From the NCBI GenBank assembly GCA_032027125.1, contig JAVSMQ010000001.1, forward strand, positions 3,241,620 through 3,305,619: a stretch of 64,000 nt of DNA, written 5' to 3'. The DNA is from Candidatus Kapaibacterium sp. (lineage in GTDB: Bacteria; Bacteroidota; Ignavibacteria; Kapaibacteriales; UBA2268). Both the position numbers and the translations under genes were made by a program. Positions within the stretch are counted from its first letter, which is position 1. Every line of letters starts with the position of its first letter. Below are positions 13,944 through 58,426 of this stretch, one piece after another. The notes beneath the pieces are model-generated. The model saw nothing but the letters and a program-made list of their open reading frames with translations. It searched no databases and had not been told where the DNA came from.

Positions 13944-16900
13944 ATGGAAAATAATGATACGCAATTAGAAAACTTAAGACTTGCTGAACTTAGAAGTTAT
14001 GCTCTTCTGGACACTCCTGCTCAGCAAACATTTGACGATATTACTCTAATGGCAGCACAAATATGTAATTTGCCGATAGCATTGATTTCACTAGTAGATG
14101 AAAAACGTCAGTGGTTTAAATCCAAAGTAGGTCTTGACGCAGATGAAACACCCCGTGAACATGCTTTTTGTGCACATGCTATCAAAAAGCCTGATGAGTT
14201 ATTCATAGTACCTGATGCTGAAGCAGATGAACGCTTTAAAGACAATCCACTTGTGATAGGAACACCGAATGTAAGATTTTATGCCGGTGCACCATTGGTA
14301 ACTAAAAATGGATTTGCTCTGGGCACATTGTGCGTAATTGATACAATTCCAAGAGAGCTTAATGTCCAGCAGTTGAAAGCATTAGATGCTTTACGCCGAA
14401 ACGTTATTACAGCCTTTGAATTAAGAAAAGCAATGCGAGATATTAAAGACACAGAAACTGCTTTAAAGGAAAGCCTTGCACGTCAGAATGCAATTTTCAA
14501 TAATGCGGCAGATGCAATTATATCAATTGACGCTAATGGAATTATTGATTCATTTAATCCTAAAGCGGTATCGCTTTTCAAAATCTCAGCTGAAGATGCT
14601 GTCGGACTAAATATTTCTGAATTTATGCCGCCTGAACACAGTTCAAAACATAATCAATATTTGAAGAATTATTTTGAATCGAAAGATAGTAAAGTAATTG
14701 GAAAATGTAATGAATTAACCTGCAAAAAATATGACGGGTCACTATTCATCGCCGAGTTATCTGTTGGTGAATTTGATGTCAACGGAAAGAAAATGTTTAC
14801 CGGTATTATTAGAGATATTACTGAAAGAAAAGAAATTGAAAATAACTTAAAGTACAGAGAAGAAAGATACAGAAAAATTTTCGAATTATCACCTGAAGTT
14901 ATTGTCCTGTTTGATGATAAAGGTTTTATACTGGACTTAAACGACAGGTGCTTTGATTTTACAGGCTATACGAAACAAGAATTATTAAACTTACATTTAA
15001 GTCATGTACCTTTTTTTGATAAGAAATCAAAAGAAACTGTAATGTATAATTTTTCAAACAGATTGTCTAACATATCAATTCCACCTTATGAAACTGAGTA
15101 TATCCATAAGAATGGAACAATTTGTACGGGGCTGATTTCGGCAGCGTTGATTAAAAATGAGAATGAACAGAATTTACAGATATTCGCAATGATTTCCGAT
15201 ATAACTGTGAGGAAAAATAATGAAAAGCAGATTAAACAGTCAAATGATATGATGAAGGCTATAAATTCCTTAATGGGTTTATATATTAGTGAATCGCTGC
15301 AAGAAAGTGAATTGTTTGATATTCTACTGGTTAAGCTTCTTGAAATATCCTGTTCGGAATATGGTTTTATTTCAAAGGTTTTGTATGACGTAGATGCTCA
15401 GCCTTACTTTAAAACTATATCAATTACAGATTTATCTTGGAATGAAGAAGTAAGAAAGCTCTATGATTTATATAGTAATAAAGATTTGGAATTCAGAAAT
15501 CTTAATACACTTTTCGGAAGTGTATTAAAAACCAAAAAAGCAGTAATATCAAATAATCCGGAAAATGATTCAAGGAGTGGCGGTTTACCGGAAAACCATC
15601 CGCCGCTAAATGCCTTTATCGGGATTCCGATTATGAAGAGCGATGATATAATCGGATTATACGGACTTGCTAACAGAATTGGAGGTTATGACAGGGAAAC
15701 AACGGATTATCTCGAGCCGTTTACTTCTACACTTGGGTATATACTTTTGGGATTAGATGAAAAAGATAAAAGAAAGAAAGCTGAGGAAGCTCTTAGAATA
15801 AATCAAAGAGCTATTGATTCAAGCAGTAACGGTATTGTGATTGTTGATGCTAAAGATACTCATCTTCCTGTAATTTATGTTAATAAAGGTTTTGAAAAAA
15901 TTACTGGTTATAAGTCTTACGATATTATTGGAAAGAATTGTAACATTTTACAGGGAACTGACAATGATCAACCCGGAATAACAGAGATAAGAAATGCAAT
16001 AAAAAATAATAAGCATGTTACAACTGTTTTAAGAAATTACAAAAAAGACGGAACTTTGTTTTGGAATGAATTGACGATTTCGCCGATATTTGACGATAAT
16101 AAAGATATTACTCATTTTGTAGGTTTGCAAAACGATATAACAGAAAGAAAAACATCGCAGGAAAAATTAGAAGCAGCATACAGAACAATTAAAAATGATT
16201 TTGAAGCAGCAGCTCAAATACAGAGAGATTTACTGCCTAATGTGAAATATGTTATTCCCGGACTCAGTTTTAAATGGCTTTTTATTCCAAGTGTTGAAGT
16301 ATCAGGTGATATTTTCAATTATTTTCAACTTGATGAAAATATAACGGCATTCTACCTGCTTGATGTTTCAGGTCATGGAATACCGGCTGCAATGATGAGT
16401 GTAACATTAAGCAGAATGATTTCACCCTATCAAAAACCTGAATCTCTGTTGAGAATTTTAAATCCGGTAACAAATAAGTACATAATTACTCCACCTGCAG
16501 AAGTAATCAGCCATTTAAATAGTATTTACCAATCTGAATTAGATTCAATTTCTTATTTCACTATGATTTACGGGGTAATTGATTTTGGGAAAAACAAAAT
16601 TACATTTTGTCAGGCAGGCCATCCATCACCAATGTTACTGACTTCCGGTGGTGAAGTTAAATCGGTTGGTACATCAGGCTTCCCTGTAGGTATGCTTCCC
16701 GACATGAATTATGAAAATCAGGAATTTGATTTTATTAAAGGTGATAAATTATTTATATATTCAGATGGAGTTACCGAATGTTCCAATAATCAAGATATTC
16801 TCTTTTCTGAGGAATTATTTATTAAGACAATATCTGAGAATAGAAATAAGCAGATGGAAGAAATAATTGAAAATCTGAAAATAAAACTTAAAAACTGGAA

Positions 16901-16964
16901 ATCCGGTGATGATTTTGAAGATGATATAACCATATTGGCTATTGAGAGGACTTATGATGTTTAA
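13944..16964 (+). CDS. multi-sensor PP2C-type Ser phosphatase (GAF-PAS-PAS-GAF-LOV-SpoIIE/RsbU-like)
   Basis: N-terminal GAF (…CAHAIKKPDELFIVPDAEADERF…GAPL). PAS domains carrying DITERK-type PAC ends (three times). A LOV core YVNKGFEKITGYKSYDIIGKNCNILQG…FWNELTISPIFDDNKDITHFVGLQNDITERK, close to canonical GRNCRFLQG with the adduct Cys. C-terminal PP2C/SpoIIE region (DVSGHGIPAAMMSV… DDITILAI). Confidence 0.85.
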   Translation: MENNDTQLENLRLAELRSYALLDTPAQQTFDDITLMAAQICNLPIALISLVDEKRQWFKSKVGLDADETPREHAFCAHAIKKPDELFIVPDAEADERFKDNPLVIGTPNVRFYAGAPLVTKNGFALGTLCVIDTIPRELNVQQLKALDALRRNVITAFELRKAMRDIKDTETALKESLARQNAIFNNAADAIISIDANGIIDSFNPKAVSLFKISAEDAVGLNISEFMPPEHSSKHNQYLKNYFESKDSKVIGKCNELTCKKYDGSLFIAELSVGEFDVNGKKMFTGIIRDITERKEIENNLKYREERYRKIFELSPEVIVLFDDKGFILDLNDRCFDFTGYTKQELLNLHLSHVPFFDKKSKETVMYNFSNRLSNISIPPYETEYIHKNGTICTGLISAALIKNENEQNLQIFAMISDITVRKNNEKQIKQSNDMMKAINSLMGLYISESLQESELFDILLVKLLEISCSEYGFISKVLYDVDAQPYFKTISITDLSWNEEVRKLYDLYSNKDLEFRNLNTLFGSVLKTKKAVISNNPENDSRSGGLPENHPPLNAFIGIPIMKSDDIIGLYGLANRIGGYDRETTDYLEPFTSTLGYILLGLDEKDKRKKAEEALRINQRAIDSSSNGIVIVDAKDTHLPVIYVNKGFEKITGYKSYDIIGKNCNILQGTDNDQPGITEIRNAIKNNKHVTTVLRNYKKDGTLFWNELTISPIFDDNKDITHFVGLQNDITERKTSQEKLEAAYRTIKNDFEAAAQIQRDLLPNVKYVIPGLSFKWLFIPSVEVSGDIFNYFQLDENITAFYLLDVSGHGIPAAMMSVTLSRMISPYQKPESLLRILNPVTNKYIITPPAEVISHLNSIYQSELDSISYFTMIYGVIDFGKNKITFCQAGHPSPMLLTSGGEVKSVGTSGFPVGMLPDMNYENQEFDFIKGDKLFIYSDGVTECSNNQDILFSEELFIKTISENRNKQMEEIIENLKIKLKNWKSGDDFEDDITILAIERTYDV

Positions 16965-25031: not shown

Positions 25032-25694
25032 TTATTTTTCTTCCAATTTTGTTACTAATGTTTCAACCCAATTCCTAAATCTCGGGCATTTTTCAATAAT
25101 TGCTTCTATTCCAATTTCCTGAGCTATAAGATTTCCATAAACAATCTTGTTGTAATCCTTAATAATATCCAATAATCTTTTTGATGGTGCAGTATTTGGA
25201 TTATCATTTATATCTTCGGGATTCGGGTATTTGTCGATAATATTTTCAATATCTTTAATAACTCTGGGTTCCGAACTCCAAAAAGAATTAAACCCTTTAT
25301 TTGATGAGAATAACAAAGCTTCAAACTCATAAAGTTGAATATAAGGTAGAAATCTGTCGTCAGATATATTATCCTTCATAGCTCTTTCTAATGCTTCTAC
25401 TTTAAGATTTGATGTTCTTAATTTCATTGATTGATCATATTTCGGAACGTTAGTTGGAATTTTAAAAAAATCTACTAAAGTTGAAACGAAAATATCTGAT
25501 TGGCTTTTTAATAATCTATTTACATCATTTTTTAAATGTTCATAATTAACAAATCCACCTTTTTGACTTTTACTAGTTTGAATCTTAATAGGATGTACAA
25601 CATAAATATTCTTTGAGATTAAATAGTTCCGCAGTATGGTTTTTACGAATTCTTCTTCAGTCTGACCTTCAACAATAATAAATAATCGTTTCAT
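25032..25694 (-). CDS. DUF4276-like protein (Toprim-like putative nuclease partner of an AAA ATPase)
   Basis: 220 aa. N-terminal MKRLFIIVEGQTEEEFV (acidic E-G-x-T-E in a beta-strand context, as in Toprim/OLD-type folds). Conserved YEFEALLFS block. Start overlaps the stop of the upstream ATPase (ATGA at 25694). Confidence 0.55.
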   Translation of the reverse strand: MKRLFIIVEGQTEEEFVKTILRNYLISKNIYVVHPIKIQTSKSQKGGFVNYEHLKNDVNRLLKSQSDIFVSTLVDFFKIPTNVPKYDQSMKLRTSNLKVEALERAMKDNISDDRFLPYIQLYEFEALLFSSNKGFNSFWSSEPRVIKDIENIIDKYPNPEDINDNPNTAPSKRLLDIIKDYNKIVYGNLIAQEIGIEAIIEKCPRFRNWVETLVTKLEEK

Positions 25695-26782
25695 TAAGGT
25701 TTGCCTCCGATTACATTCTTTTCCCAGAGTTCACCTATTGTATAATCTTCAAGCCAGTCTTTTAAATTTTCTTTTGATAATCTTTTAAAAACTGACTGTT
25801 TTTCTTCTCTATCCACAACTAAAATATTTTCAGGTTCAAAATTTTCTATTAAATTTACTGATTGTGTTGAAATAATTACCTGAGTTTTTTGTGAGGCACT
25901 CAATATTAACCCTGCAAGTTTATTTATTGCAAAAGGGTGTAATCCCAGTTCCGGTTCGTCAATAATAATCGTCTTTGGTAGATGAGGTTGTAATAATAAA
26001 GTAGCTAAACAAATAAATCTCAGTGACCCATCTGATAAATTATTAGCATCAAAATATGTATCTGTACCGGTTTCTTTCCATTCGATTTTTATAAAATCGG
26101 GATTAAGGGCTAATGGTTTTAAATCAAATTCATTAAAATAAGGTGCAACAGATTTAATTGTACTTTCGATTAAATTAAAATTCTTAGGATATTTATATTT
26201 CAATAAATATAGAAATGCTGATAAATTACTGGCATCCATTCTTAAAAAACTATTATCGTTTATATTACACGATTTCTTTACTTTAGCTGTATTACTTGTG
26301 TCATTAAAATGGAATACTTTAAATCCTCTTAAATAATCGTTAATAAATTTGTATCTACCTGTCTGCTTGTCTTTTAATGAACTTTCTGAATGACCTCGTA
26401 ACCAAGTATCATCTTTCCACTTTGGAGTTTTTTCTTTTTTGTCATAATTTGTATTAAAACCATTTGTCTCATAATCAAAGTAAAATGTTCCTGAATTTGT
26501 AGTATTTAATGATAATTCGTAGCAATTTGTATTTTCAAAGAAAATTTTTGTGTATATCCGATTTGTTACTTTTGAACCAAAATATAAAAGGTTGTCAGCT
26601 CCTCCCTGTTCTAAAGTGTAGTTTTGAAGATTTTTATCATAAATGTTACTTAACATTTCAAAAAAAGATATAAAATTGCTTTTACCCACACCATTAGCTC
26701 CTATTAGTATATTTAGATTTGATAATTCAATTTCTAAATTCCTAATCGATTTGTAACCTTGAATAAGTATTTTATTTATCAT
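25694..26782 (-). CDS. AAA_15/AAA_21-type ABC-like ATPase (OLD/PARIS-AriA/AbiLi-like)
   Basis: 362 aa. Walker A GANGVGKSN within the first 40 aa. ABC-type signature-like LSDGSLRF. Walker B IIIDEPELGLHP. The long insertion between A and B is typical of the SMC/OLD-like AAA_15/21 clade. Confidence 0.7.
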   Translation of the reverse strand: MINKILIQGYKSIRNLEIELSNLNILIGANGVGKSNFISFFEMLSNIYDKNLQNYTLEQGGADNLLYFGSKVTNRIYTKIFFENTNCYELSLNTTNSGTFYFDYETNGFNTNYDKKEKTPKWKDDTWLRGHSESSLKDKQTGRYKFINDYLRGFKVFHFNDTSNTAKVKKSCNINDNSFLRMDASNLSAFLYLLKYKYPKNFNLIESTIKSVAPYFNEFDLKPLALNPDFIKIEWKETGTDTYFDANNLSDGSLRFICLATLLLQPHLPKTIIIDEPELGLHPFAINKLAGLILSASQKTQVIISTQSVNLIENFEPENILVVDREEKQSVFKRLSKENLKDWLEDYTIGELWEKNVIGGKP

Positions 26783-50354: not shown

Positions 50355-53300
50355 ATGAATAAGCAACTTAAAAATATAGAAAAATTACTCAAGCAAAGCG
50401 AATCTTTTAAAAATATAATAAGCCGTCTCGAAACCGAGAGCGAAGTGCGGATAAGAGATGCTGCTGGTTCTCTGCTGAGTTTGATGATTACATCAATAAG
50501 CGAAACAACAAACCGTAAAACAGTTTTTGTATCGAATAATATTGATAAATTAGATGATATTTATCATGATATAAAACTGATTGGTTTTGAAAGTCCGCTC
50601 AATTTGGTTAAAGAGCCGCAAGCAACTTTAAGAAGCAGGGTTAACAACACAGGCAGCGCCCTTGACTGGCTGATTGAGGGATTGATGTCTTTCAGCAGGA
50701 GTGAGTCAGGAATTTTACTCTGCCAACCTGACATATTTCAATATCAAATTCCAAGCAATGAAATTGTCGAAGGGCATTACAAAAAGATTGAAAAAGGGCA
50801 GACTTTTGATTTTGATTCGTTTATAAAAGAGTTGATTCTAAACGGGTTCGAGAGAATGGATTACGTTTCGGGTCAGGGACAAATTGCTGTTCGGGGCGGT
50901 ATAGTTGACTTGTTTCCAATAGGCTGGGATAATCCTGTCAGAATTGAATTCTGGGGAAATGACATTGAATCATTAAGGGAATTTGAAGTAATTTCGCAGC
51001 GAAGCATTCGTGAATTTGACAGCATTGAGTATCTTGACAGTATGTTCAGCGATGGACCTGATAATGAAGATTCCGATAAAAGTGCAATTGATTTCATTGG
51101 TGACGATATTCTGCTGATGATTGACGAAACTGTTGATACGGAGGAGCTTAATAATATTATAACGGGACATGATTTCAAGAAAATATTCTTAAGTCCTGTA
51201 GGAAGTTATAATCTTGGAATTAAATCTTTCAGACAGCCGCAATTTGCGAGTTCGATAAAATTCTTTATAAGTGAAATGAACAAGTTTGCTGTTGAAAATT
51301 ATAAAATATTTCTTGCCTGCGAAGGACATATTCATCTTGACAGATTCAAAAACCTTGTTTACAGTACTTTAGACGACCAAATTGAGAACGCCGAATCAGA
51401 TAATTATTTGAGTCCGAAAGTTCGTGAAAAGCTGCTTATCTGGGACACTGTGTCTTTATCACGGGGATTTTTCAGCGAAGAGCTCAAAGTTGCCTATTAT
51501 ACCGAGCATGAGGTATTTGAAAGACACAGAATTTATGATACTCAGCAAAAAAAGAAAAGCAAAGGATTAACTATTAAGGAATTGCAGGACCTGAGAATCG
51601 GTGACTATGTTGTTCACGAAGATAAAGGCATTGGCATATTCGACGGTTTCCAAACTATTACAATCGCTGATTCAAAACAAGACTGCGCCCGGGTAAGGTT
51701 TGCTGACGGAGATATGCTGTATGTTCATTTGAATTATATCGGCAAATTAAGTAAATACTCTGCTCAGGAAGGTTCGGCTCCGGTACTTACAAAACTCGGT
51801 TCCGGAGAATGGCTCAGACGAAGGGCAAAAACAAAGAAACGTCTGAAAGATATAGCCCGCGATTTGATAAAACTCTATGCAGAACGCAAAGCTCAGAGAG
51901 GATTTGCTTTTCCGGCAGATACAATCTGGCAGAAGGAATTTGAAGCTGCTTTCATTTATGAAGATACACCCGACCAGGTCTCCTCAACCGAAGATGTCAA
52001 ATCAGATATGGAAAGTATTTCTCCGATGGACAGGCTTGTATGCGGTGATGTAGGATTCGGCAAGACTGAAGTTGCAATAAGGGCTGCATTCAAAGCTGTT
52101 CAGGCTGGCAAACAGGTGGCGGTGCTTGTGCCGACTACGATTCTTGCCCAGCAGCACTATATGTCATTCAAAGACAGATTAAGCAAGTATCCGGTTAATA
52201 TTGATGTAATTTCCAGATTCCGTTCTAAAAAAGAGCAGTCGCAGATTACCGAGAAATTGCAACGAGCCGGAATTGATATTTTAATCGGCACTCATAGAAT
52301 TTTAAGCAAAGATATAATATTTAAAAATCTTGGTCTGCTTGTGGTTGATGAAGAACACAGATTTGGAGTCAGCCATAAAGAAAAACTCCGTCAGATGAAA
52401 GCAAATGTTGATACCTTGACTATGACTGCAACACCTATACCGCGAACACTGAACTTTTCGCTTATGGGAGCGCGCGATTTGAGTCTTATCGAGACTCCAC
52501 CGAGAAACAGAATACCAGTATTAACAGAAATTCTTGAGTGGGATAATAATGCTATCGTTCAGGCGATTAACAGCGAAATTGAACGAGGCGGACAGGTATT
52601 TTTCGTAAGTGACAGAATTGATGATATTGAAAAGATTGCCGCCGAAATGAAGACACTGCTGCCGCATCTTAACTTTGCAGTAGGTCACGGGCAGATGAGA
52701 CCATCCGAACTTGAAGACATTATGGAAAAATTCATCGAAGGCAAGTATGATGTACTTGTGGCTACCAAAATAATCGAGTCGGGTATTGATATACCAAATG
52801 CAAATACTATTCTGATTAACCGAGCCCACAATTTCGGACTGGCAGAGTTATACCAGCTTAGAGGCAGAGTAGGACGCTCTAATGTACAGGCATACTGCTA
52901 TCTGCTTATTCCGCCTGCTCATAAACTGCCGCAGAAATCAATTCAAAGGCTGCAGGCAATCGAGGAATTTTCCGAACTTGGCAGCGGATTTAAACTCTCT
53001 ATGCGTGATATGGAAATTCGCGGTGCAGGAAATTTACTGGGTGCTGAACAAAGCGGATTTATCATTGATATCGGATTTGAATTATATCAAAAAGTATTGG
53101 GCGAAGCAGTTAACGAACTCAAAACAGGTGAATTTGCAGATATTTTCGGGGATGCTGAAGTTGATGACAAACCCAAATATCTTAATGAAGAAATTGTGAT
53201 TGAAATTGATGAAGATGCTCTTTTTCCGGCAGATTATATCAGCGGCGATACAGAAAGATTTATGTATTACAAAAAACTATATACTCTCAATGATAATTTT

Positions 53301-53651
53301 GAACTTGATGACGTTATCAAAGAAATTACCGATAAATACGGAAAACTTCCGAAAGAAGCACGGAATCTGATATTTGTTGTCAGGCTTAGAATTGCTTCAA
53401 TGGCTACAGGTTTTTCAAGAATTATAGTTAAAAAAACCAAACTTATTTGTGAATTTCCATCTCGTGATTTAAAAGATTATTATGATGAAGTTTTCCCGCA
53501 AATTATTGACTATCTGAACCAGACAGACGGAATAATGTTAAATCAGAGCAAAGAAAAATTATTTCTCGAAATACCGCTTGATAACAGAAGCCGGGCACTG
53601 GAATATATCTGGAAAATAAAGAGAATCATTGAGATGAGTGGGGAGAAGTAA
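50355..53651 (+). CDS. mfd: transcription-repair coupling factor
   Basis: 1098 aa with UvrB-homology N-terminus. RNAP-interaction and SF2 helicase motifs (GDVGFGKTEVA, DEEHRFG) and TRG motif region. Confidence 0.95.
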   Translation: MNKQLKNIEKLLKQSESFKNIISRLETESEVRIRDAAGSLLSLMITSISETTNRKTVFVSNNIDKLDDIYHDIKLIGFESPLNLVKEPQATLRSRVNNTGSALDWLIEGLMSFSRSESGILLCQPDIFQYQIPSNEIVEGHYKKIEKGQTFDFDSFIKELILNGFERMDYVSGQGQIAVRGGIVDLFPIGWDNPVRIEFWGNDIESLREFEVISQRSIREFDSIEYLDSMFSDGPDNEDSDKSAIDFIGDDILLMIDETVDTEELNNIITGHDFKKIFLSPVGSYNLGIKSFRQPQFASSIKFFISEMNKFAVENYKIFLACEGHIHLDRFKNLVYSTLDDQIENAESDNYLSPKVREKLLIWDTVSLSRGFFSEELKVAYYTEHEVFERHRIYDTQQKKKSKGLTIKELQDLRIGDYVVHEDKGIGIFDGFQTITIADSKQDCARVRFADGDMLYVHLNYIGKLSKYSAQEGSAPVLTKLGSGEWLRRRAKTKKRLKDIARDLIKLYAERKAQRGFAFPADTIWQKEFEAAFIYEDTPDQVSSTEDVKSDMESISPMDRLVCGDVGFGKTEVAIRAAFKAVQAGKQVAVLVPTTILAQQHYMSFKDRLSKYPVNIDVISRFRSKKEQSQITEKLQRAGIDILIGTHRILSKDIIFKNLGLLVVDEEHRFGVSHKEKLRQMKANVDTLTMTATPIPRTLNFSLMGARDLSLIETPPRNRIPVLTEILEWDNNAIVQAINSEIERGGQVFFVSDRIDDIEKIAAEMKTLLPHLNFAVGHGQMRPSELEDIMEKFIEGKYDVLVATKIIESGIDIPNANTILINRAHNFGLAELYQLRGRVGRSNVQAYCYLLIPPAHKLPQKSIQRLQAIEEFSELGSGFKLSMRDMEIRGAGNLLGAEQSGFIIDIGFELYQKVLGEAVNELKTGEFADIFGDAEVDDKPKYLNEEIVIEIDEDALFPADYISGDTERFMYYKKLYTLNDNFELDDVIKEITDKYGKLPKEARNLIFVVRLRIASMATGFSRIIVKKTKLICEFPSRDLKDYYDEVFPQIIDYLNQTDGIMLNQSKEKLFLEIPLDNRSRALEYIWKIKRIIEMSGEK

Positions 53652-53655
53652 TAGA

Positions 53656-53916
53656 CTATTCGTAATGAGTCCACATTTTAAGTATTTTAATTTGCTTAGT
53701 TTCATCGAAAATTTGATATACCATTCTATGTTGGTTATTAATTCTTCTGGAAATGAATCCTTTCAATCTTCCTTTCAAAAATTCATATTTCGGTGGGTAA
53801 ACAAAAGGGTCTTTTGAGATTATTTCAAGCAGATATTCTACATTTTTCTTTAAACCTGCACTTGCAATCTTTTTTGCATCAATTCGGGCTTGATGAGTAT
53901 AATATATTTCCCACAT
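53656..53916 (-). CDS. YoeB/Txe-family toxin
   Basis: 86 aa. …LKGRLKGFISRRINNQHRMVYQIFDE…HYE matches YoeB (…L.G.WSRRI..EHRLVY…, C-terminal H-Y). Confidence 0.75.
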   Translation of the reverse strand: MWEIYYTHQARIDAKKIASAGLKKNVEYLLEIISKDPFVYPPKYEFLKGRLKGFISRRINNQHRMVYQIFDETKQIKILKMWTHYE

Positions 53917-54129
53917 TTACCAATCCAATGATTTTGAGCAATTTTTTAAATCTTCTTGAGAAGCAGTTACAATCGAATCCACGATTCCGGGAATACTCTC
54001 CAAATATTCAGTATCATTTTCCTTATGAGATTTTGCTTTTAGAAAGATTGCATAGTCGAGTAAATCTTTTAGATAATAATATGGCATATTGTTGGTCACA
54101 TTTATTATATCTGACTGCATAGTATTCAT
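53917..54129 (-). CDS. antitoxin partner of YoeB (Phd/YefM-like C-terminus)
   Basis: 70 aa directly upstream, abutting with no gap. C-terminal DTEYLESIPGIVDSIV resembles YefM/Phd ETxYLLxSPxNxxxLxxSI. Confidence 0.5.
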   Translation of the reverse strand: MNTMQSDIINVTNNMPYYYLKDLLDYAIFLKAKSHKENDTEYLESIPGIVDSIVTASQEDLKNCSKSLDW

Positions 54130-54214
54130 TTTTATCGCCTTAATTTAATTTGTAAATATTTTTTAAACGTATTTTCTGTACAGATATTTTGATTTATTAA
54201 TCTTAAAACAACAA

Positions 54215-54263
54215 CTTTTATCATATCATTATCTCCAATAAACGAATGCTCAAAAGTACAAAT
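54215..54263 (-). promoter_or_regulatory. conserved ~45-bp cassette-leader element, copy 1 (upstream of the YefM-like/YoeB operon)
   Basis: Minus-strand reading ATTTGTACTTTTGAGCATTCGTTTATTGGAGATAATGATATGATAAAAG. Shared with the copies at 55177-55225 and 56161-56196. Contains a GGAGA-N5-ATG with a short MIKV… leader ORF. Confidence 0.6.
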
Positions 54264-54485
54264 TAAAACGTTTATAATTCACAGAGTTTTAAAAATAGAG
54301 TTATTTCTTTTGAAAATATTGGAAATAGTAATTAAATCAGTAATTAGTTGCTTTAACTTTTAAAAGTCAAATAGTTTTAAATCCTCTATAAAAATAAAAT
54401 CCTTTTTGTTTAGGGTAAAAAGCTTATAATTATATTTAATTGCAGTAGCAGCTATCAAACAATCAGGAATTTTTAATTTGTGACT

Positions 54486-54749
54486 TTAACAATACTTTTT
54501 CATTAACTTAAGAAATCTATCATTTATGCTTTGATTTATTGAAACAACATTTAGGCTATCAATATCATTACAAATTTTTGTAAGTTCACTTTTATTAAAG
54601 GCACCATAAATCAATTCAGCAGCAGTTATTGAACTTATTGCAATTTTTTCAACTGATATTTGTTGTAAATTCTTTGCAACCGCTAAGTTATCTTTATAGA
54701 ATTCAATTATTACATCTGTATCGCATAAAATCATTTCTATATTTTCCAC
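54486..54749 (-). CDS. PIN-domain protein, short (possibly truncated VapC-like toxin)
   Basis: MILCDTDVIIEF matches the N-terminal PIN motif (first Asp). Only 87 aa, so the distal catalytic Asp residues are probably missing. Confidence 0.45.
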   Translation of the reverse strand: MENIEMILCDTDVIIEFYKDNLAVAKNLQQISVEKIAISSITAAELIYGAFNKSELTKICNDIDSLNVVSINQSINDRFLKLMKKYC

Positions 54750-54988
54750 GCTTCTTTCCTTAATTGCATGGCATCAATATTTCTGTTTTTCCAAATCCCC
54801 TGAGAATTCAGAAAATTATGCTTGGATTTGTTATTTTTTAAATCAATACTTATTTTTTCTTCTGAACCATTTATTTTGGCAATTTCAATACCTAATTTCC
54901 TTGCTAAACTAAGAATCAGTTCCATATCCGATATTGAATTACTTTTTAATAAAACCGCTTCCATGATAAGTCCATTATTTAATTTCAA
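54737..54988 (-). CDS. small protein upstream of the PIN gene (putative VapB-like antitoxin)
   Basis: 83 aa, overlaps the PIN ORF by 13 bp. Partner role inferred from position only. Confidence 0.35.
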   Translation of the reverse strand: MKLNNGLIMEAVLLKSNSISDMELILSLARKLGIEIAKINGSEEKISIDLKNNKSKHNFLNSQGIWKNRNIDAMQLRKEAWKI

Positions 54989-55176
54989 AATACTAATTTA
55001 AATTAATCAACGCTAAGTAATACTTTTTATTATTTTTTAAAATTATTTACCGGTACTTTTTATCAAATACATATTAATAAAGATTGCCTTTTCTGTCTTG
55101 AAAGTAAAGATATTATCATGAGTAACTATATAAACCGAATAGGCAAACTCTGAATCACACTGATTTATATCTTTAA

Positions 55177-55225
55177 CTTTTATCATATCATTATCTCCAA
55201 AGAACAGATGCTCTAAAGTACAAAT
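55177..55225 (-). promoter_or_regulatory. conserved cassette-leader element, copy 2 (upstream of the VapB-like/PIN operon)
   Basis: Minus-strand ATTTGTACTTTAGAGCATCTGTTCTTTGGAGATAATGATATGATAAAAG. Followed by a ~48-codon MIKVKDINQ… leader ORF. Confidence 0.6.
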
Positions 55226-55308
55226 AACTGAATTTTTGGCAAAAACCAGAATAACAAGAATAGATTTGTAATATAACCACTTTGATATATTGTTCTAATA
55301 ATTAAATT

Positions 55309-55650
55309 TCAAAATAATTTGAAATTAATAATTTCAGTATTCAAAATATCATCACCGTTAGTTACAATTTCCAAAAGATCAATTCTACCATTAGTGATAT
55401 TTAAAACAAAACTAAGTTCATTTTCTAAAAGATCTATGGTTAAGCATTTTGTTGAAGTCACTAACACATTAACATCATTAAATTCAAAATATTTAGAATA
55501 TTCAAAATAGACGTATATCCCAACTCCTGTATATTCTCTACTTTTTATATAAATATGAGGGAAGTGAATTTTCAAAAATGGATAATTGCTTTCATTGTCT
55601 TTAATTATTGCTTTTAAAAGTTCAATTTCCAAATTGTTTAAACTATTCAT
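55309..55650 (-). CDS. hypothetical protein downstream of the MNT gene (non-HEPN partner)
   Basis: 113 aa. No Rx4-6H HEPN motif or other recognisable signature. Confidence 0.3.
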   Translation of the reverse strand: MNSLNNLEIELLKAIIKDNESNYPFLKIHFPHIYIKSREYTGVGIYVYFEYSKYFEFNDVNVLVTSTKCLTIDLLENELSFVLNITNGRIDLLEIVTNGDDILNTEIINFKLF

Positions 55651-55713
55651 TTTAAAGTCCTTTTCTACTAAATGAAGTTAAAGTTATTTTGCCATTTATA
55701 ACTCTACTGCTTA

Positions 55714-55986
55714 TCAGGATTCATATATGACTTTACCGTATTTGGTAATTATTCTCATAAAGGGGTCGTTATAATCAAGGGGAGTGATATCAACAGGTAT
55801 TTTGAGCATTTCTTCTAATTTACTACCAAACAGAAATAAGTTTAATCCCGGAATATCGCAGGCTAAATCAATATCATTACAATTTTCGGGATTATCAAGG
55901 GCTGACCCAAACAAAATAATTTTCTTTACATCAAATTCTTTTGCTTTTTCTCTAATATTTCTAATATAATCTTTTTTAAATATCAT
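55714..55986 (-). CDS. minimal nucleotidyltransferase (MNT) family protein
   Basis: 90 aa. ILFGSALDNPENCNDIDL is the G-S…D-x-D pol-beta NTase motif. Confidence 0.7.
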   Translation of the reverse strand: MIFKKDYIRNIREKAKEFDVKKIILFGSALDNPENCNDIDLACDIPGLNLFLFGSKLEEMLKIPVDITPLDYNDPFMRIITKYGKVIYES

Positions 55987-56160
55987 TATTCAAATCTATT
56001 TTATATATTGACTACCTATATATAGACTATGAGTAATTATTTTTATTATTTTCAATCGGTATTTTAAGCACACATATTCTGCGAAATTACATAATGAACA
56101 TTTTACGTTTTGATTCAACTCAAACTCCGAATCTCACTGCGTTCTACTTTAGCCGCTTCC

Positions 56161-56196
56161 CAATCATTATCTCCAAAGACCGGATGCTAAAAATAC
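56161..56196 (-). promoter_or_regulatory. conserved cassette-leader element, copy 3 (upstream of the MNT operon)
   Basis: Minus-strand GTATTTTTAGCATCCGGTCTTTGGAGATAATGATTG. A partial copy sharing the GAGCAT/TAGCAT…TTTGGAGATAATGAT core. Confidence 0.5.
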
Positions 56197-56419
56197 TTAT
56201 TTCTGAATTTATGGTAAAATATAATTTTAAGAATTCATTTGTACTTCTTTCAACAATATTCTGCACAGGATTTAATTCCGTTTTATTTGTTTTGTTATTG
56301 TATGACAATACTCTATCTCCCGCTTTTTATTTTATCAATAGTCAGACTTGTAAATGAATTAAACTTTAAATTGATTGATTATCGTCTAATGAAGAAATTA
56401 TTAATCAATTTAAAAGAAT

Positions 56420-58426
56420 ATGACCAGGCTGTATTTAGTTTTTATCTGTTTCGTGCTTTTGACAATATCTGATTTGAAATCTGACACAATTTATTGGGCA
56501 GATAAGGTTGTCGGCATTTCTTCCCAGATGAGTAATAAGGAGTTTTCAGCATCCCAGGTTTTGGGCAAACCGAGTATCATACCTTCTCAAGGCAAGACTG
56601 CAGCAGCATGGATGCCCAAATTCCCGATTTACAGGATTGAATGGCTAAGGGTCAAATTTACGGAGAAAATATTTGTAAATCAGATTTTAATTAACGAGAA
56701 TTTTAATCCGGGTGCAATTGTCAAAATTATTCTTTATGATTCTCTTGATAACGGGATTCTTGTTTATTCAAATCACAAAGTAAGTAATTCTCCCGGTGCG
56801 GGGAAATTATCAAAATTCGATATTGATAAGACAAACTTTAGAACAGATGAATTAAAAATTGAAGTAAATTTAACTAATTATCTCGACGAATACCAGATTG
56901 ATGCCGTCGGTATTGCTGACTATATCAGCAGTTATGAAGTAAAAATTAACCATGCCGATGATACTTTGAATTATGAAAAAGAAAAATTCGGTGATAATAT
57001 AAATAGTCAGTATAGAGAACTTGGACCTATAATATCACAGGACGGCAAAACACTTGTTTTTACGCGTGAAGGACATCCTGATAATATCGGAATTCAAAAG
57101 AGACAGGATGTATGGATATCTAAAGCGGACGAAAAAGGTGAATTCCAAAAAGCATATAACATTGGTGAGCCGATTAATAATGAGATGACCAATTTTGCAA
57201 TTTCTATTTCGACAAACGCTAATTCAATATTTCTCGGTAATAAATATTTACCGGACGGAACATCAAAGCCGGGTTTTTCCGAAAGTCATTTTGATGGAAT
57301 TCGATGGTCATTTCCGGATTCAATAATCATCAGAGATTATTATAATTTATATCCTTTTTCAAGTTTTTGTCTTGGAAGTAACGGCAAAATACTCATTACG
57401 GCAATTAAACGTGAAGATAGTTTCGGAAAATCAGACCTTTATGTGAGTTTTCTGGATGATGACAGTACATGGACTGCTCCGAAAAGTCTTGGTAAAGTTA
57501 TAAATACTGCTGAAGAAGAATTATCTCCTTTTCTTGCAAGTGACAATAAAACTTTGTATTTTTCAACCCAGGGGCTGCCGGGATTTGGCAATAGTGATAT
57601 GTACGTATCCCGCAGACTTGATGAGAGCTGGACTAACTGGTCAGAACCGGTTAACTTAGGTCCCAATATAAATACCGACGGCTGGGATGCTTATTACACA
57701 GTCACAGGCGACGGACAATATGCTTATTTTGTTTCATCATTTGATACACGTACCGCAGAAGATATTTACAGAGTTAAACTGCCTGTTTCAGTAAAACCCG
57801 ATGCTGTTGTATTGGTCAGGGGTAAGGTTATAAATCAGAAAACCGGTAAACCGCTGGCTGCAGATATTCATTACGAAATTCTACCTGAAGGATTCGAAGC
57901 CGGAATTGCAAAATCAAATCCAAAGACCGGTGATTACAGTATTATACTGCCTGCAGGAAAAAACTACGGATTTCTTGCGACATCAAAAGGATTTGCATCA
58001 ATTAATGAGAATATTGATTTAAAAGACATCAGGCAGTATAATGAAATATCAAGGGATTTGTTTCTGGTTCCGATAGAAACAGGTCAGACTGTAAGAATTA
58101 ATAATATATTCTTTAATTACGGTGAGTTTGAATTGCTGCCTGAGTCATATTCTGAGTTAAACAGGCTTGTAAAGTTTCTCAATGAAAATCCACTGATGAA
58201 AATTCAAATCAGCGGACATACTGATAACATCGGCAGTGATATTTTCAACAAAGAACTTTCACTCAAAAGGGCTGAATCTGTATATGATTTTTTAAAACTG
58301 AAGAATATAAATTCTTCCAGACTTAAAATTGCAGGATTTGGAATGAATAAGCCTATTGCAAAAAACAATACCGAAGAAGGCAGAAGTAAAAACCGAAGGG
58401 TAGAGTTTCTGATACTCGAAAATTAA
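56420..58426 (+). CDS. OmpA-family protein with TolB/PD40-like beta-propeller repeats
   Basis: Signal peptide. PD40-like repeats (…YFSTQGLPGFGNSDMYVS…). C-terminal OmpA/MotB peptidoglycan-binding domain (…ISGHTDNIGSDIFNKELSLKRAESV…NRRVEF). Confidence 0.75.
   Translation: MTRLYLVFICFVLLTISDLKSDTIYWADKVVGISSQMSNKEFSASQVLGKPSIIPSQGKTAAAWMPKFPIYRIEWLRVKFTEKIFVNQILINENFNPGAIVKIILYDSLDNGILVYSNHKVSNSPGAGKLSKFDIDKTNFRTDELKIEVNLTNYLDEYQIDAVGIADYISSYEVKINHADDTLNYEKEKFGDNINSQYRELGPIISQDGKTLVFTREGHPDNIGIQKRQDVWISKADEKGEFQKAYNIGEPINNEMTNFAISISTNANSIFLGNKYLPDGTSKPGFSESHFDGIRWSFPDSIIIRDYYNLYPFSSFCLGSNGKILITAIKREDSFGKSDLYVSFLDDDSTWTAPKSLGKVINTAEEELSPFLASDNKTLYFSTQGLPGFGNSDMYVSRRLDESWTNWSEPVNLGPNINTDGWDAYYTVTGDGQYAYFVSSFDTRTAEDIYRVKLPVSVKPDAVVLVRGKVINQKTGKPLAADIHYEILPEGFEAGIAKSNPKTGDYSIILPAGKNYGFLATSKGFASINENIDLKDIRQYNEISRDLFLVPIETGQTVRINNIFFNYGEFELLPESYSELNRLVKFLNENPLMKIQISGHTDNIGSDIFNKELSLKRAESVYDFLKLKNINSSRLKIAGFGMNKPIAKNNTEEGRSKNRRVEFLILEN

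What the first reader, a model, noticed from the sequence alone, without database searches (positions are those of the whole stretch)
53656..56200. Toxin-antitoxin islet between mfd and an OmpA gene: three minus-strand cassettes, each preceded by the same ~45-bp leader element
There are three cassettes: YefM-like/YoeB (53656-54129), small protein/PIN (54486-54988) and MNT/113-aa unknown (55309-55986). Each is preceded, 100-200 bp upstream, by a conserved block (minus-strand consensus ATTTGTACTTT-GAGCAT-N6-TTTGGAGATAATGATATGATAAAAG). Two of the three encode a short 'MIKV…' leader peptide starting at the embedded ATG. Unrelated TA families that share an identical 5' module look like a cassette system with a common promoter/operator/leader, or a common recombination site. 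This is reminiscent of TA-rich integron cassette arrays, although no integrase or canonical attC is visible here.
Basis: seen in the sequence. Interest (0 to 1): 0.65.

Follow-up and report, generated by a model that had tools for sequence, protein, structure and literature searches.

The report
Promoter-bearing junction repeat between gene modules
A small, strain-variable island of decaying toxin-antitoxin genes in a Kapabacteria genome has its gene modules separated by copies of one short repeat, which looks like a portable promoter with an invariant 14-base core at which modules are gained, lost or swapped; it is not an integron and does not encode a leader peptide.

Summary
Three minus-strand copies of one element lie at 54213-54265, 55143-55275 and 56119-56238, each ahead of an unrelated gene module. 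None is expected by chance.

Two sister haplotypes from other metagenomes carry different modules between the same mfd and OmpA genes. The same element sits at their module junctions too. All six copies share an invariant core, TTGGAGATAATGAT. Homology between haplotypes switches on or off at or next to this core in two comparisons. In a third it starts 45 nt to its right.

The left arm matches the Bacteroidota/Chlorobi-type sigma-A promoter, TTTG-N19-TAnnTTTG. The match is exact in one copy and one to two mismatches off in most others. This puts the core at about +8 to +21 of the predicted transcript.

Rejected readings:
- Integron: no attC-like fold, and no recombinase from 22 kb on the mfd side to 16 kb on the OmpA side.
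- Leader peptide: the ATG is TGG or AGG in four of six copies.
- Structured RNA, and relic coding sequence.

Only the YoeB pair is intact. The PIN gene has an in-frame stop, and the MNT gene has lost its HepT partner.

Best reading: a portable promoter/leader junction element that also serves as the recombination point of a local module hotspot. Whether recombination is homologous or site-specific is open. Modest interest; a new variant of a known kind.

The parts
56119..56238 (-). Junction element copy C. Left arm 56177-56238 with a degenerate -7 box TATTTTTA at 56188-56195. Invariant core 56163-56176. Right arm 56119-56162.
   Evidence: Homology to the sister haplotype L034 resumes at 56118, 45 nt right of the core.
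55143..55275 (-). Junction element copy B. -33 TTTG at 55240-55243, 19-nt spacer, -7 box TACTTTAG (1 mismatch) at 55213-55220. Invariant core 55187-55200. Right arm 55143-55186.
   Evidence: About 86% identical to its positional orthologues E (L034) and F1 (L048) over 58-77 nt that include the left arm and core. Ungapped identity falls to background about 20 nt right of the core.
54213..54265 (-). Junction element copy A. Exact -7 box TACTTTTG at 54251-54258, with no -33 box. Invariant core 54225-54238. Short right arm 54213-54224, continuous with the antitoxin leader.
   Evidence: Homology to its positional orthologue F2 (L048) begins at 54238, the left edge of the core, and runs through the antitoxin gene.
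55714..55986 (-). MNT (MntA-like nucleotidyltransferase, 90 aa). A TAGATTTG -7-like box lies 4 nt before its ATG.
   Evidence: Pfam Polbeta 1.8e-8. NCBIfam MntA 1e-6, below cutoff. 95% DNA identity to L034 and L048. Box found.
55704..55724 (-). Stump of the lost HepT toxin gene (ATGAATCCTGATAA, then divergence; reads MNPDKQ*).
   Evidence: L034 has the full overlapping HepT-like_2 gene, which starts with the same 14 nt.
55309..55650 (-). 113-aa gene that replaced HepT. It belongs to an uncharacterised family and is not a recognisable toxin.
   Evidence: No Pfam or NCBIfam hit. 123 representative relatives. AF2 pLDDT 95.9 with no significant PDB neighbour. L048 has a different 177-aa gene behind the same spacer and the same first 6 codons.
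55043..55186 (-). 47-aa 'MIKV' ORF after copy B. Probably not a gene.
   Evidence: The start codon is not conserved in other copies. It has no relatives in 5.8 billion proteins and forms a singleton cluster.
54737..54988 (-). Small ORF (75-83 aa) upstream of and overlapping PIN. Presumed VapB-like antitoxin.
   Evidence: Position only. No family hit. Singleton cluster.
54360..54749 (-). PIN-domain (VapC-like) gene interrupted by an in-frame TAA at 54486-54488. Likely a pseudogene.
   Evidence: The PIN match (1e-15) spans residues 7-116 across the stop. The truncated form is present in all assemblies.
54132..54224 (-). 30-aa 'MIKV' ORF after copy A. Part of the antitoxin leader, not a conserved peptide.
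   Evidence: The orthologous copy F2 has AGG in place of ATG.
53917..54129 (-). Antitoxin of YoeB (70 aa), with a DUF2281-like N-terminus.
   Evidence: Weak DUF2281 and VapB hits. Conserved family at 66-76% identity. That the C-terminal half resembles the toxin-binding tail of YefM is my own reading from memory of the E. coli YefM sequence; it was not computed.
53656..53916 (-). YoeB/Txe toxin (86 aa). The only intact toxin of the islet.
   Evidence: PF06769 1.5e-11. TIGR02116 7.4e-25, above cutoff.
50355..53651 (+). mfd, the conserved left flank of the islet (convergent with the modules).
56420..58426 (+). OmpA-family/PD40 gene, the conserved right flank (divergent from the modules).

Best explanation
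The stretch between mfd and the OmpA-family gene (53652-56419) is a strain-variable accessory islet of a Candidatus Kapabacteria bacterium. It is built from small minus-strand modules, and a copy of one junction element of about 50-135 nt precedes each module.

The element has three parts:
1. A left arm that is a Bacteroidota/Chlorobi-type sigma-A promoter (-33 TTTG, 19-nt spacer, -7 TAnnTTTG).
2. An invariant 14-nt core, TTGGAGATAATGAT, which is GTTCTTTGGAGATAATGAT in four of six copies. It starts 12 nt after the -7 box, at about +8 to +21 of the predicted transcript. It holds a GGAG Shine-Dalgarno-like motif and, in four copies, a GATAA-N6-GATAA direct repeat.
3. A right arm of 10-45 nt.

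Proposed mechanism: the element supplies transcription and a common 5' leader to whatever module lies downstream. Because it is the only sequence shared by otherwise unrelated modules, it is also where modules are deleted, inserted or exchanged, by recombination between copies within a genome or between strains.

Shown: the copies, the invariant core, the consensus promoter match, the junction position in three haplotypes, and breakpoints at or within about 20 nt of the core in two of three comparisons.

Inferred: promoter activity, the function of the core, and the recombination mechanism.
For: 1. Three copies in the window against none expected. Three more lie at module junctions in two sister haplotypes: L034/L035 has MNT-HepT | E | antitoxin relic, and L048 has MNT-177aa | F1 | DUF3997-like lipoprotein | F2 | orphan antitoxin.

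2. The 14-nt core is identical in all six copies while the flanks are 60-86% alike. A run of 14 invariant columns was reached in 0 of 100,000 column shuffles.

3. Breakpoints. A and F2 become homologous exactly at the left edge of the core. B, E and F1 share the left arm and core, and ungapped identity falls to background about 20 nt right of the core, where they run into unrelated cargo.

4. Promoter match. E has exact TTTG-N19-TACTTTTG. A has an exact -7 box. B has an exact -33 box and spacer with one mismatch in the -7 box. The block conserved among B, E and F1 starts at or up to about 15 nt upstream of the -33 box.

5. TAnnTTTG is denser in the intergenic DNA of this window (2.56 against 1.51 per kb). 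The composite motif occurs 4 times in intergenic DNA and 2 times in coding DNA, although intergenic DNA is only 18% of the sequence. The consensus, and the -12 to -5 position of the -7 box, come from PMC9723704 and bioRxiv 10.1101/172254.

6. No other TAnnTTTG lies between the element and the x-PIN or antitoxin-YoeB start codons. In L048 the lipoprotein ATG is only 33 nt after the core, which leaves no room for another promoter.

7. All six copies point the same way as the downstream genes. The islet has 22-28% GC against 33-45% in its flanks.
Against: - There are no transcript data, so promoter activity is a consensus match only. Four of six copies have an imperfect -7 box, yet the core is better conserved than the promoter boxes. 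The core must therefore do something that the promoter reading does not explain.
- MNT has its own -7-like box next to its ATG.
- Copy E in L034 has no intact gene downstream.
- The breakpoint upstream of MNT lies 45 nt right of core C, not at the core.
- Module differences bounded by direct repeats could arise from simple deletions out of a longer ancestral array. They do not prove insertion.
- Only three haplotypes of one species-level lineage were available.
- The element was not found elsewhere in 72.6 kb of the source genome, including next to a second PIN pair. A general portable-promoter role is therefore undemonstrated.
Confidence: 0.45

Rival explanations
1. The core is the crossover site of a site-specific recombinase encoded elsewhere in the genome. 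Small circular modules of about 0.5-1 kb would integrate at, and excise from, the core. This would be an integron-like or rAID-like cassette system acting in trans. The promoter-like left arm would be carried along or be incidental.
For: - The core of 14-19 nt is invariant and its arms diverge. That is the usual appearance of att-type sites.
- In L048 the two copies that flank the 490-bp lipoprotein module share little beyond about 19-22 nt. I judge this short for RecA-dependent recombination; that is general knowledge, not tested here.
- The arm pattern is what attB x attP integration would produce: left arms B=E=F1, right arms A=F2, and module-specific inner arms.
- Bacteroidales rAID-1 arrays pair repetitive intergenic sequences with a XerD-family recombinase (bioRxiv 10.1101/471110).
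Against: - No recombinase, integrase or transposase domain was found in the ORFs screened: Pfam scans of window ORFs of at least 120 aa (one of 1,006 aa at 13944-16964 left out) and precomputed Pfam families of called genes from window position 45309 to 8.6 kb past the window end.
- By eye, I saw no dyad symmetry around the core of the kind tyrosine or serine recombinases use. The repeats present are direct (TTGGA...TTGGA, GATAA-N6-GATAA).
- No single-strand fold.
- No module was found at a second location. The x, PIN, 113-aa and YoeB proteins are essentially singleton clusters among 15 billion proteins.
- One breakpoint is 45 nt away from the core.
Confidence: 0.2
2. The element is purely regulatory. 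The invariant core would be an operator or 5'-leader signal that puts the modules under one control, either as a regulator-binding site overlapping +8 to +21 or as an SD-plus-AUG ribosome-loading site. The differences between strains would be ordinary deletions that owe nothing to the element.
For: - The core sits just downstream of the predicted start site, which is a typical repressor position.
- A GATAA-N6-GATAA direct repeat with 11-bp phase occurs in copies A, B, E and F2.
- GGAG is followed by ATG at 8 nt in copies A and B. The organism does use SD motifs: 22 of 44 genes, against 5 of 44 in a control window.
- GATAATGAT equals the first 9 nt of the classical Fur box. This is from my own knowledge and was not tested.
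Against: - No candidate regulator is evident. From its alignment the YoeB antitoxin's conserved N-terminus looks like little more than a single short helix (my reading; no structure was predicted), and the only hits are weak DUF2281 and VapB matches.
- Homologous antitoxin loci in other lineages have no such site upstream.
- The ATG is absent in four of six copies.
- This reading does not explain why homology between haplotypes switches at the core.
Confidence: 0.15
3. The copies are inert leftovers of past local duplication or recombination. They have no present function and are kept only because the events are recent.
For: - The element is confined to this islet in 72.6 kb of the genome.
- It was found in no other lineage examined.
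- The islet is decaying: a stop codon in PIN, and HepT and YoeB lost in different haplotypes.
Against: - Neutral decay would not leave 14 consecutive invariant positions in six copies whose flanks have diverged by 15-40%.
- The conserved block begins close to the promoter's -33 box and carries a well-spaced -33/-7 pair. I estimate this at roughly 0.002 by chance; the estimate is post hoc and was not computed.
Confidence: 0.12
4. The element encodes a translated leader peptide (MIKV...) that regulates the downstream toxin-antitoxin genes, or it is a relic of a protein-coding gene (frame ...SVICTFEHxFFGDNDW...).
For: - A and B have GGAG-N8-ATG and open frames of 30 and 47 aa.
- One frame is open across the core in all copies.
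- JGI and NCBI both called the 47-aa ORF as a gene.
Against: - The ATG is TGG in C, E and F1 and AGG in F2.
- The peptides share only MIKV.
- B and C differ by an indel downstream.
- By my count, only about 2 of 14 codon differences between B and F1 are synonymous.
- A profile of the translations finds nothing but the 47-aa ORF itself among 5.8 billion proteins.
Confidence: 0.03
5. The element is an integron attC site or another structured nucleic acid, such as an sRNA or riboswitch.
For: Repeats lie between cassettes in one orientation, and the content is rich in toxin-antitoxin genes, which recalls chromosomal integron arrays.
Against: - Folding energies equal those of shuffled sequence, with z-scores between -0.65 and +0.69, for RNA and DNA on both strands.
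- RNAalifold on six copies gives -0.09 kcal/mol and no compensatory pairs.
- No Rfam family matches at the gathering threshold or up to E = 10.
- No intI gene was found.
Confidence: 0.02

Closest known systems
Integron cassette arrays and CALINs (clusters of attC sites lacking an integrase)
   Same: A one-directional array of small, unrelated modules with many toxin-antitoxin genes. Copies of one repeat separate the modules. Strains differ by whole modules. GC content is lower than in the flanks.
   Different: No intI gene. The repeat has no attC-type imperfect hairpin. By eye I saw no R'/R'' GTTRRRY boxes (no pattern search was run). The repeat lies 5' of each module and looks like a promoter, whereas attC lies 3' of mostly promoterless cassettes.
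rAID-1 (recombinase-associated acquired interbacterial defence) arrays of Bacteroidales (bioRxiv 10.1101/471110)
   Same: The same broad bacterial group (FCB). Arrays of small accessory genes with repetitive intergenic sequences and skewed GC. The authors describe them as reminiscent of integrons.
   Different: rAID-1 arrays have a conserved XerD-family recombinase gene at one end and carry orphan immunity genes. Here no recombinase was found from 22 kb on one side to 16 kb on the other, and the cargo is decaying toxin-antitoxin genes plus unknown genes. The rAID-1 repeat motif could not be compared because the figures are not held.
Minimal mobile elements of Neisseria (for example PMC1797815, PMC3082526)
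   Same: Different gene cassettes occupy the same site between two conserved housekeeping genes in different strains. No mobility genes are present. Exchange is attributed to homologous recombination.
   Different: Those are defined by the conserved flanking genes alone. Here a dedicated internal junction repeat with an invariant core punctuates the modules. Natural transformation in Kapabacteria is unknown.
pdif modules of Acinetobacter plasmids (from my own knowledge; not checked in the papers held)
   Same: Small modules, often toxin-antitoxin pairs, are bounded by copies of a short conserved site and moved by recombinases encoded elsewhere.
   Different: pdif sites are 28-bp XerC/XerD sites with inverted arms, and they flank modules in alternating orientation. 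The core here has direct repeats, not inverted ones, and every copy has the same orientation.
Bacteroidota/Chlorobi sigma-A promoters (TTG-N17-23-TAnnTTTG)
   Same: The left arm carries this consensus with a 19-nt spacer. The window's intergenic DNA is enriched for the -7 box.
   Different: An ordinary promoter is not copied in front of unrelated neighbouring modules. Nor is it followed by a 14-nt invariant transcribed core.

Membership tests
Integron / CALIN | Tyrosine integrase intI next to the array. CALINs lack one, so attC sites are then the only criterion. | tested here: not met
   No recombinase domain in the ORFs screened: Pfam scans of window ORFs of at least 120 aa (one at 13944-16964 left out) and precomputed Pfam families of called genes from 45309 to 8.6 kb past the window end.
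Integron / CALIN | attC sites: imperfect inverted repeats that fold as single-stranded hairpins. | tested here: not met
   RNA and DNA folds of the elements and of whole inter-module regions, on both strands, give z-scores from -0.65 to +0.69. RNAalifold on six copies gives -0.09 kcal/mol.
Integron / CALIN | Cassette content differs between related strains, with boundaries at the repeat. | tested here: met
   Three haplotypes carry different modules, and the element sits at every junction.
rAID-1 array | A conserved XerD-family recombinase gene at the head of the array. | tested here: not met
   None found next to the islet or within 16-22 kb of it.
rAID-1 array | Repetitive intergenic sequences and skewed GC. 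| tested here: met
   (22-28% GC against 33-45% in the flanks).
rAID-1 array | The cargo is orphan immunity genes. | tested here: inconclusive
   [not shown]
Minimal mobile element | Different gene content at one site between the same conserved genes in related strains, with no mobility genes. | tested here: met
   The mfd and OmpA flanks are conserved (OmpA protein 97% identical) while the content between them differs.
Minimal mobile element | Exchange by transformation and homologous recombination. | not testable with these tools
   This needs population genomics or experiments.
FCB-type sigma-A promoter | -33 TTG/TTTG, a 17-23 nt spacer, and -7 TAnnTTTG. | tested here: met
   Exact in E. 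A has an exact -7 box. B has an exact -33 box and spacer with one mismatch in the -7 box. C, F1 and F2 are degenerate.
FCB-type sigma-A promoter | A transcription start about 5 nt downstream of the -7 box. | not testable with these tools
   No transcript data are available.
Leader peptide / upstream ORF regulation | A conserved start codon and a conserved peptide or frame. | tested here: not met
   ATG in two of six copies, TGG or AGG in the rest. The frames diverge.
YefM-YoeB type II toxin-antitoxin | A YoeB/Txe toxin domain. | tested here: met
   PF06769 1.5e-11. TIGR02116 87 bits against a cutoff of 51.8.
YefM-YoeB type II toxin-antitoxin | An antitoxin of the Phd/YefM fold. | tested here: not met
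   No Phd/YefM hit, only weak DUF2281 and VapB matches at the N-terminus. The resemblance of the C-terminus to the YefM tail rests on my reading only.
MNT-HepT (type VII) toxin-antitoxin | An MntA nucleotidyltransferase paired with a HepT toxin. | tested here: not met
   MNT is present, but only 14 nt of HepT remain in the window. The intact pair is in L034.
VapBC toxin-antitoxin | An intact PIN-domain toxin with an upstream antitoxin. | tested here: not met
   The PIN domain is interrupted by an in-frame TAA at 54486-54488.

The most novel reading that the evidence does not exclude
Kapabacteria may carry an integron-like gene-cassette system of a new type. Modules of 0.5-1 kb, each with its own promoter, would be integrated and excised at a core site of about 19 nt (GTTCTTTGGAGATAATGAT). 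That site has no hairpin and no dyad symmetry. The recombinase would be encoded elsewhere in the genome. The mfd/OmpA islet would be one landing pad of this system.
Probability: 0.15. Interest if true: 0.7.

Novelty: new variant of a known kind. Interest (0 to 1): 0.4.

Why it matters
Strain-variable islands of toxin-antitoxin and defence genes are common, but how their small modules are moved and expressed is mostly unknown outside integrons. This islet is a compact case from an almost unstudied lineage. One short element appears to give each module its promoter and also marks where modules are exchanged. If a trans-acting recombinase is involved, it would be a second, structurally different solution to the integron problem. 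If not, it is a clear example of a conserved promoter/leader acting as the homology anchor for module shuffling. The element is also a candidate portable promoter part for FCB-group bacteria.

Tried and rejected
- Known RNA families: none at the gathering threshold in the whole window, and only chance-level hits up to E = 10 in the islet.
- attC or structured RNA: folds are no better than shuffles, and there is no consensus structure.
- Collection scans with AGCAT-N7-TTGGAGATAATGA(T) gave only chance or coding hits: 16 in GTDB species genomes and 11 in JGI metagenomes. In hindsight the pattern was too strict. AGCAT is not conserved in the sister haplotypes, and the metagenome scan did not return the source contig. 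Absence elsewhere is therefore not established, and both scan quotas are spent.
- Viral contigs, with two patterns: chance hits only.
- Plasmids and phages, by blastn of the whole islet: nothing relevant.
- Relic coding sequence: one frame is open across all copies. In L034 it runs in frame into the antitoxin C-terminus. However, the L034 fusion is explained by a deletion relative to L048. No protein in 5.8 billion resembles the translation. Substitutions are not biased towards synonymous changes.
- The element as part of the antitoxin-YoeB cassette: homologous pairs or orphan antitoxins at other loci and in other lineages have no element upstream.
- Homology of the whole leaders: beyond +50 nt, B and C are no more alike than shuffles (z = 1.5).
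- Synteny in more distant relatives (OmpA 67-71% identical): mfd is not adjacent, and there is no islet and no element.
- Checked by eye and dropped: sigma-54 (-24/-12), dif/Xer-type sites and the E. coli yefM operator TGTACA. Spacing or symmetry does not fit, or the motif is not conserved in L048. The sigma-70 scan of the islet found no more promoter-like sites than shuffles (27 against 21.2); it lists one at copy B, TTTAGA-16-GATAAT, with 9 of 12 matches.
- Identity of the 113-aa protein: no Pfam, NCBIfam or PDB sequence hit, and a confident AF2 model has no significant fold neighbour. Its hits in two giant proteins look spurious.

Full report
**What is in the window**

On the minus strand, between the 3' end of mfd (stop at 53651) and the start of an OmpA-family gene (56420), the order is:
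- element copy C;
- an MNT nucleotidyltransferase gene and a 113-aa gene;
- element copy B;
- a small ORF and a PIN gene;
- element copy A;
- a 70-aa antitoxin gene and YoeB.

The pattern GAGCAT-N7-TTGGAGATAATGAT matches three times with at most one mismatch. All matches are on the minus strand, and none appeared in 100 shuffles. A and B are 90% identical over 51 nt. C is 63% identical over that stretch, but it shares about 75 nt more with B on the left and about 45 nt on the right. Apart from the element, the modules share no long repeat, so this is not a local triplication. The islet has 22-28% GC against 33-45% around it.

**The modules are less intact than they look**

YoeB is solid (TIGR02116 above cutoff). 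Its antitoxin has a weak DUF2281-like N-terminus. Its C-terminal half resembles, by my reading, the toxin-binding tail of YefM. The PIN match spans an in-frame TAA at 54486-54488, and every assembly shares this stop. MNT no longer has its HepT partner. Only the first 14 nt of HepT remain (55711-55724), followed by a 63-nt spacer and the unrelated 113-aa gene.

**Organism and relatives**

Homologues of the OmpA-family neighbour are named Kapabacteria, Kapaibacterium or Ignavibacteria. The antitoxin is identical to a protein of an NCBI Candidatus Kapabacteria MAG with a 4.53-Mb contig. The same arrangement occurs in independent assemblies.

Two sister haplotypes keep mfd and OmpA but differ between them:
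- L034/L035 (OmpA 97% identical) reads: OmpA promoter, about 600 nt, a RhuM gene on the other strand flanked by about 100-nt repeats, MNT with an intact overlapping HepT, one element copy (E), a C-terminal relic of the antitoxin, then mfd.
- L048 reads: MNT, the same spacer and first six codons followed by a different 177-aa gene, element copy F1, a 132-aa DUF3997-like lipoprotein gene starting 33 nt after the core, element copy F2, the intact antitoxin without YoeB, then mfd.

The element therefore sits at every junction between minus-strand modules in all three haplotypes. The RhuM module on the other strand in L034 is flanked by a different repeat. More distant relatives (OmpA 67-71% identical) have neither the synteny nor the element.

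**Anatomy of the element**

The six copies share an invariant TTGGAGATAATGAT, which is GTTCTTTGGAGATAATGAT in four. A run of 14 invariant columns among 30 invariant of 162 was never reached in 100,000 column shuffles.

Left arms:
- B, E and F1, the copies that follow the MNT-partner genes, are about 86% alike over 58-77 nt that include the left arm and core.
- A shares about 30 nt with them.
- F2 shares about 10 nt.

Right arms:
- A and F2, the copies ahead of the antitoxin, are alike through the whole antitoxin gene.
- B, C, E and F1 share only 10-45 nt.

Between positional orthologues, homology begins at the left edge of the core (A against F2). For B against F1, ungapped identity falls to background about 20 nt after the core. 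Upstream of MNT the window and L034 become homologous 45 nt to the right of core C. The core is therefore not the only breakpoint.

**Promoter match**

The left arm contains the -7 box of Bacteroidota-type sigma-A promoters, TAnnTTTG. That box occupies -12 to -5 (PMC9723704). The full consensus TTG-N17-23-TAnnTTTG is also close to the Chlorobi motif (bioRxiv 10.1101/172254).

| Copy | -33 box and spacer | -7 box |
|---|---|---|
| E | TTTG, 19 nt | TACTTTTG (exact) |
| A | none | TACTTTTG (exact, 54251-54258) |
| B | TTTG, 19 nt | TACTTTAG (1 mismatch) |
| F1 | TTTG, 19 nt | TGCTTGTG (2 mismatches) |
| C | none | TATTTTTA (1 mismatch) |
| F2 | none | TAGATTTT (1 mismatch) |

The F1 row is the box read at the orthologous position in the listing; the script's own best hit for F1 was a different 8-mer (GTAATTTG).

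In A, B and E the box ends 12 nt before the core (11 nt in C, 9 nt in F2). The core would then be about +8 to +21 of the transcript.

In this window TAnnTTTG is denser in intergenic than in coding DNA. The composite motif is about nine-fold enriched in intergenic DNA, although the counts are small. No other TAnnTTTG lies between the element and the x-PIN or antitoxin starts. The conserved block of B, E and F1 begins at or up to about 15 nt upstream of the -33 box. This is a consensus match, not evidence of transcription.

**What it is not**

- Not a known RNA family.
- Not a folded element. Single copies and whole inter-module regions fold like shuffles as RNA or DNA on either strand, and the six-copy consensus fold is -0.09 kcal/mol with no compensatory pairs.
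- Not next to a recombinase. Pfam scans of window ORFs of at least 120 aa (one at 13944-16964 left out) and precomputed Pfam families of the called genes out to 8.6 kb past the window end show only housekeeping, defence-like or unknown genes.
- Not a leader peptide. The ATG is present only in A and B, and is TGG in C, E and F1 and AGG in F2.
- Not a protein relic. A profile of the one open frame finds only the 47-aa ORF itself among 5.8 billion proteins. The in-frame fusion in L034 is a deletion derivative of an L048-like arrangement.
- Not an intrinsic part of the antitoxin-YoeB cassette, which lacks the element at other loci.
- Not a general companion of toxin-antitoxin loci in this genome. 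A second PIN pair 16 kb away has none.

**Interpretation**

The best-supported reading is a junction element that carries a promoter and a common 5' leader for the module behind it. As the only sequence shared by unrelated modules, it also serves as the place where modules are lost, gained or swapped.

The invariance of the core, which is stronger than that of the promoter boxes, remains unexplained. It could be a crossover site for a recombinase encoded elsewhere. The lipoprotein module in L048 is flanked by copies that share little beyond about 19-22 nt, which I judge short for RecA-dependent exchange. It could instead be an operator or ribosome-loading signal: it holds GGAG, a GATAA-N6-GATAA direct repeat in four copies, and an ATG 8 nt after GGAG in A and B, in an organism that does use SD motifs. 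I could not separate these readings.

**Limits**

- Only three haplotypes of one lineage were available.
- There are no transcript or read-level data.
- The two large DNA scans used a pattern that later proved too strict.

**Comparison with known systems**

The architecture resembles chromosomal integron arrays/CALINs and the rAID-1 arrays of Bacteroidales. It fails their defining tests: no attC fold and no adjacent recombinase. It meets the definition of a Neisseria-type minimal mobile element, with variable content between conserved genes and no mobility genes, but adds an internal junction repeat. I rate it a new variant of a known kind, of moderate interest.

Noticed in passing
window 54360-54749 (-), stop at 54486-54488: The PIN (VapC-like) gene has an in-frame TAA in the middle of the domain. 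All assemblies share it, and NCBI and JGI call only the 82-87 aa N-terminal part. It is probably a recently inactivated toxin.
   Followed up: yes
window 55704-55724 and 55309-55650 (-); L048 316-912; L034 5442-5903: The HepT toxin next to MNT has been replaced in two haplotypes. A shared 63-nt spacer and the same first six codons (MNSLNN) are followed by two unrelated ORFs, of 113 aa and 177 aa. This is a second conserved 5' stub in front of variable cargo.
   Followed up: partly
[not shown]
   Followed up: partly
L048 1815-1927; L034 5137-5340; L042 4213-4235: yoeB has been lost repeatedly while its antitoxin, or part of it, stays. L048 has an orphan antitoxin. L034 has only a C-terminal relic of the antitoxin. 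An Ignavibacteria genome keeps only an 'ATGTGG...ACACATTATGAATAG' stump of yoeB after the antitoxin.
   Followed up: partly
L034 about 6280-6375 and 7340-7440 (minus orientation): A RhuM-family gene on the opposite strand is flanked by direct repeats of about 100 nt of a second type. The right end of these repeats (GGGGAATTTGAATCAA) runs into the MNT leader, at the point where window copy C's right arm ends. One repeat overlaps a 38-aa hydrophobic ORF.
   Followed up: no
L088 176-753 (about 16 kb beyond the islet on the OmpA side, outside the window): A second small-ORF/PIN pair (68 aa and 124 aa) lies next to AAA_16 ATPase and metallophosphatase genes. No copy of the junction element is nearby.
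   Followed up: partly
window 25032-26782 (-): An adjacent AAA_21 (AbiEii-like ATPase) gene and DUF4276 gene form a two-gene pair that looks like a defence system.
   Followed up: no
whole window: This FCB-group organism combines Bacteroidota-type -7 boxes (TAnnTTTG, enriched in intergenic DNA) with frequent Shine-Dalgarno-like motifs: 22 of 44 genes at -20 to -4, against 5 of 44 in a control window. Bacteroidia, by contrast, largely lack SD (PMC6847099 abstract).
   Followed up: partly
core of all copies, e.g. window 54225-54233: GATAATGAT equals the first nine bases of the classical Fur box GATAATGATAATCATTATC (from my own knowledge). The second half does not match, so this is probably coincidence.
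   Followed up: no
L001, L003, L007, L008, L018, L019, L024-L026: Many chance hits of the scan pattern share a longer string, AGCAT(A/G)TC(N)GG(A/G)TTGGAGATAATGAT, inside GC-rich DNA of Treponema, Spirochaetes and other bacteria. It looks like a conserved coding motif of an unrelated gene family, not the element.
   Followed up: no
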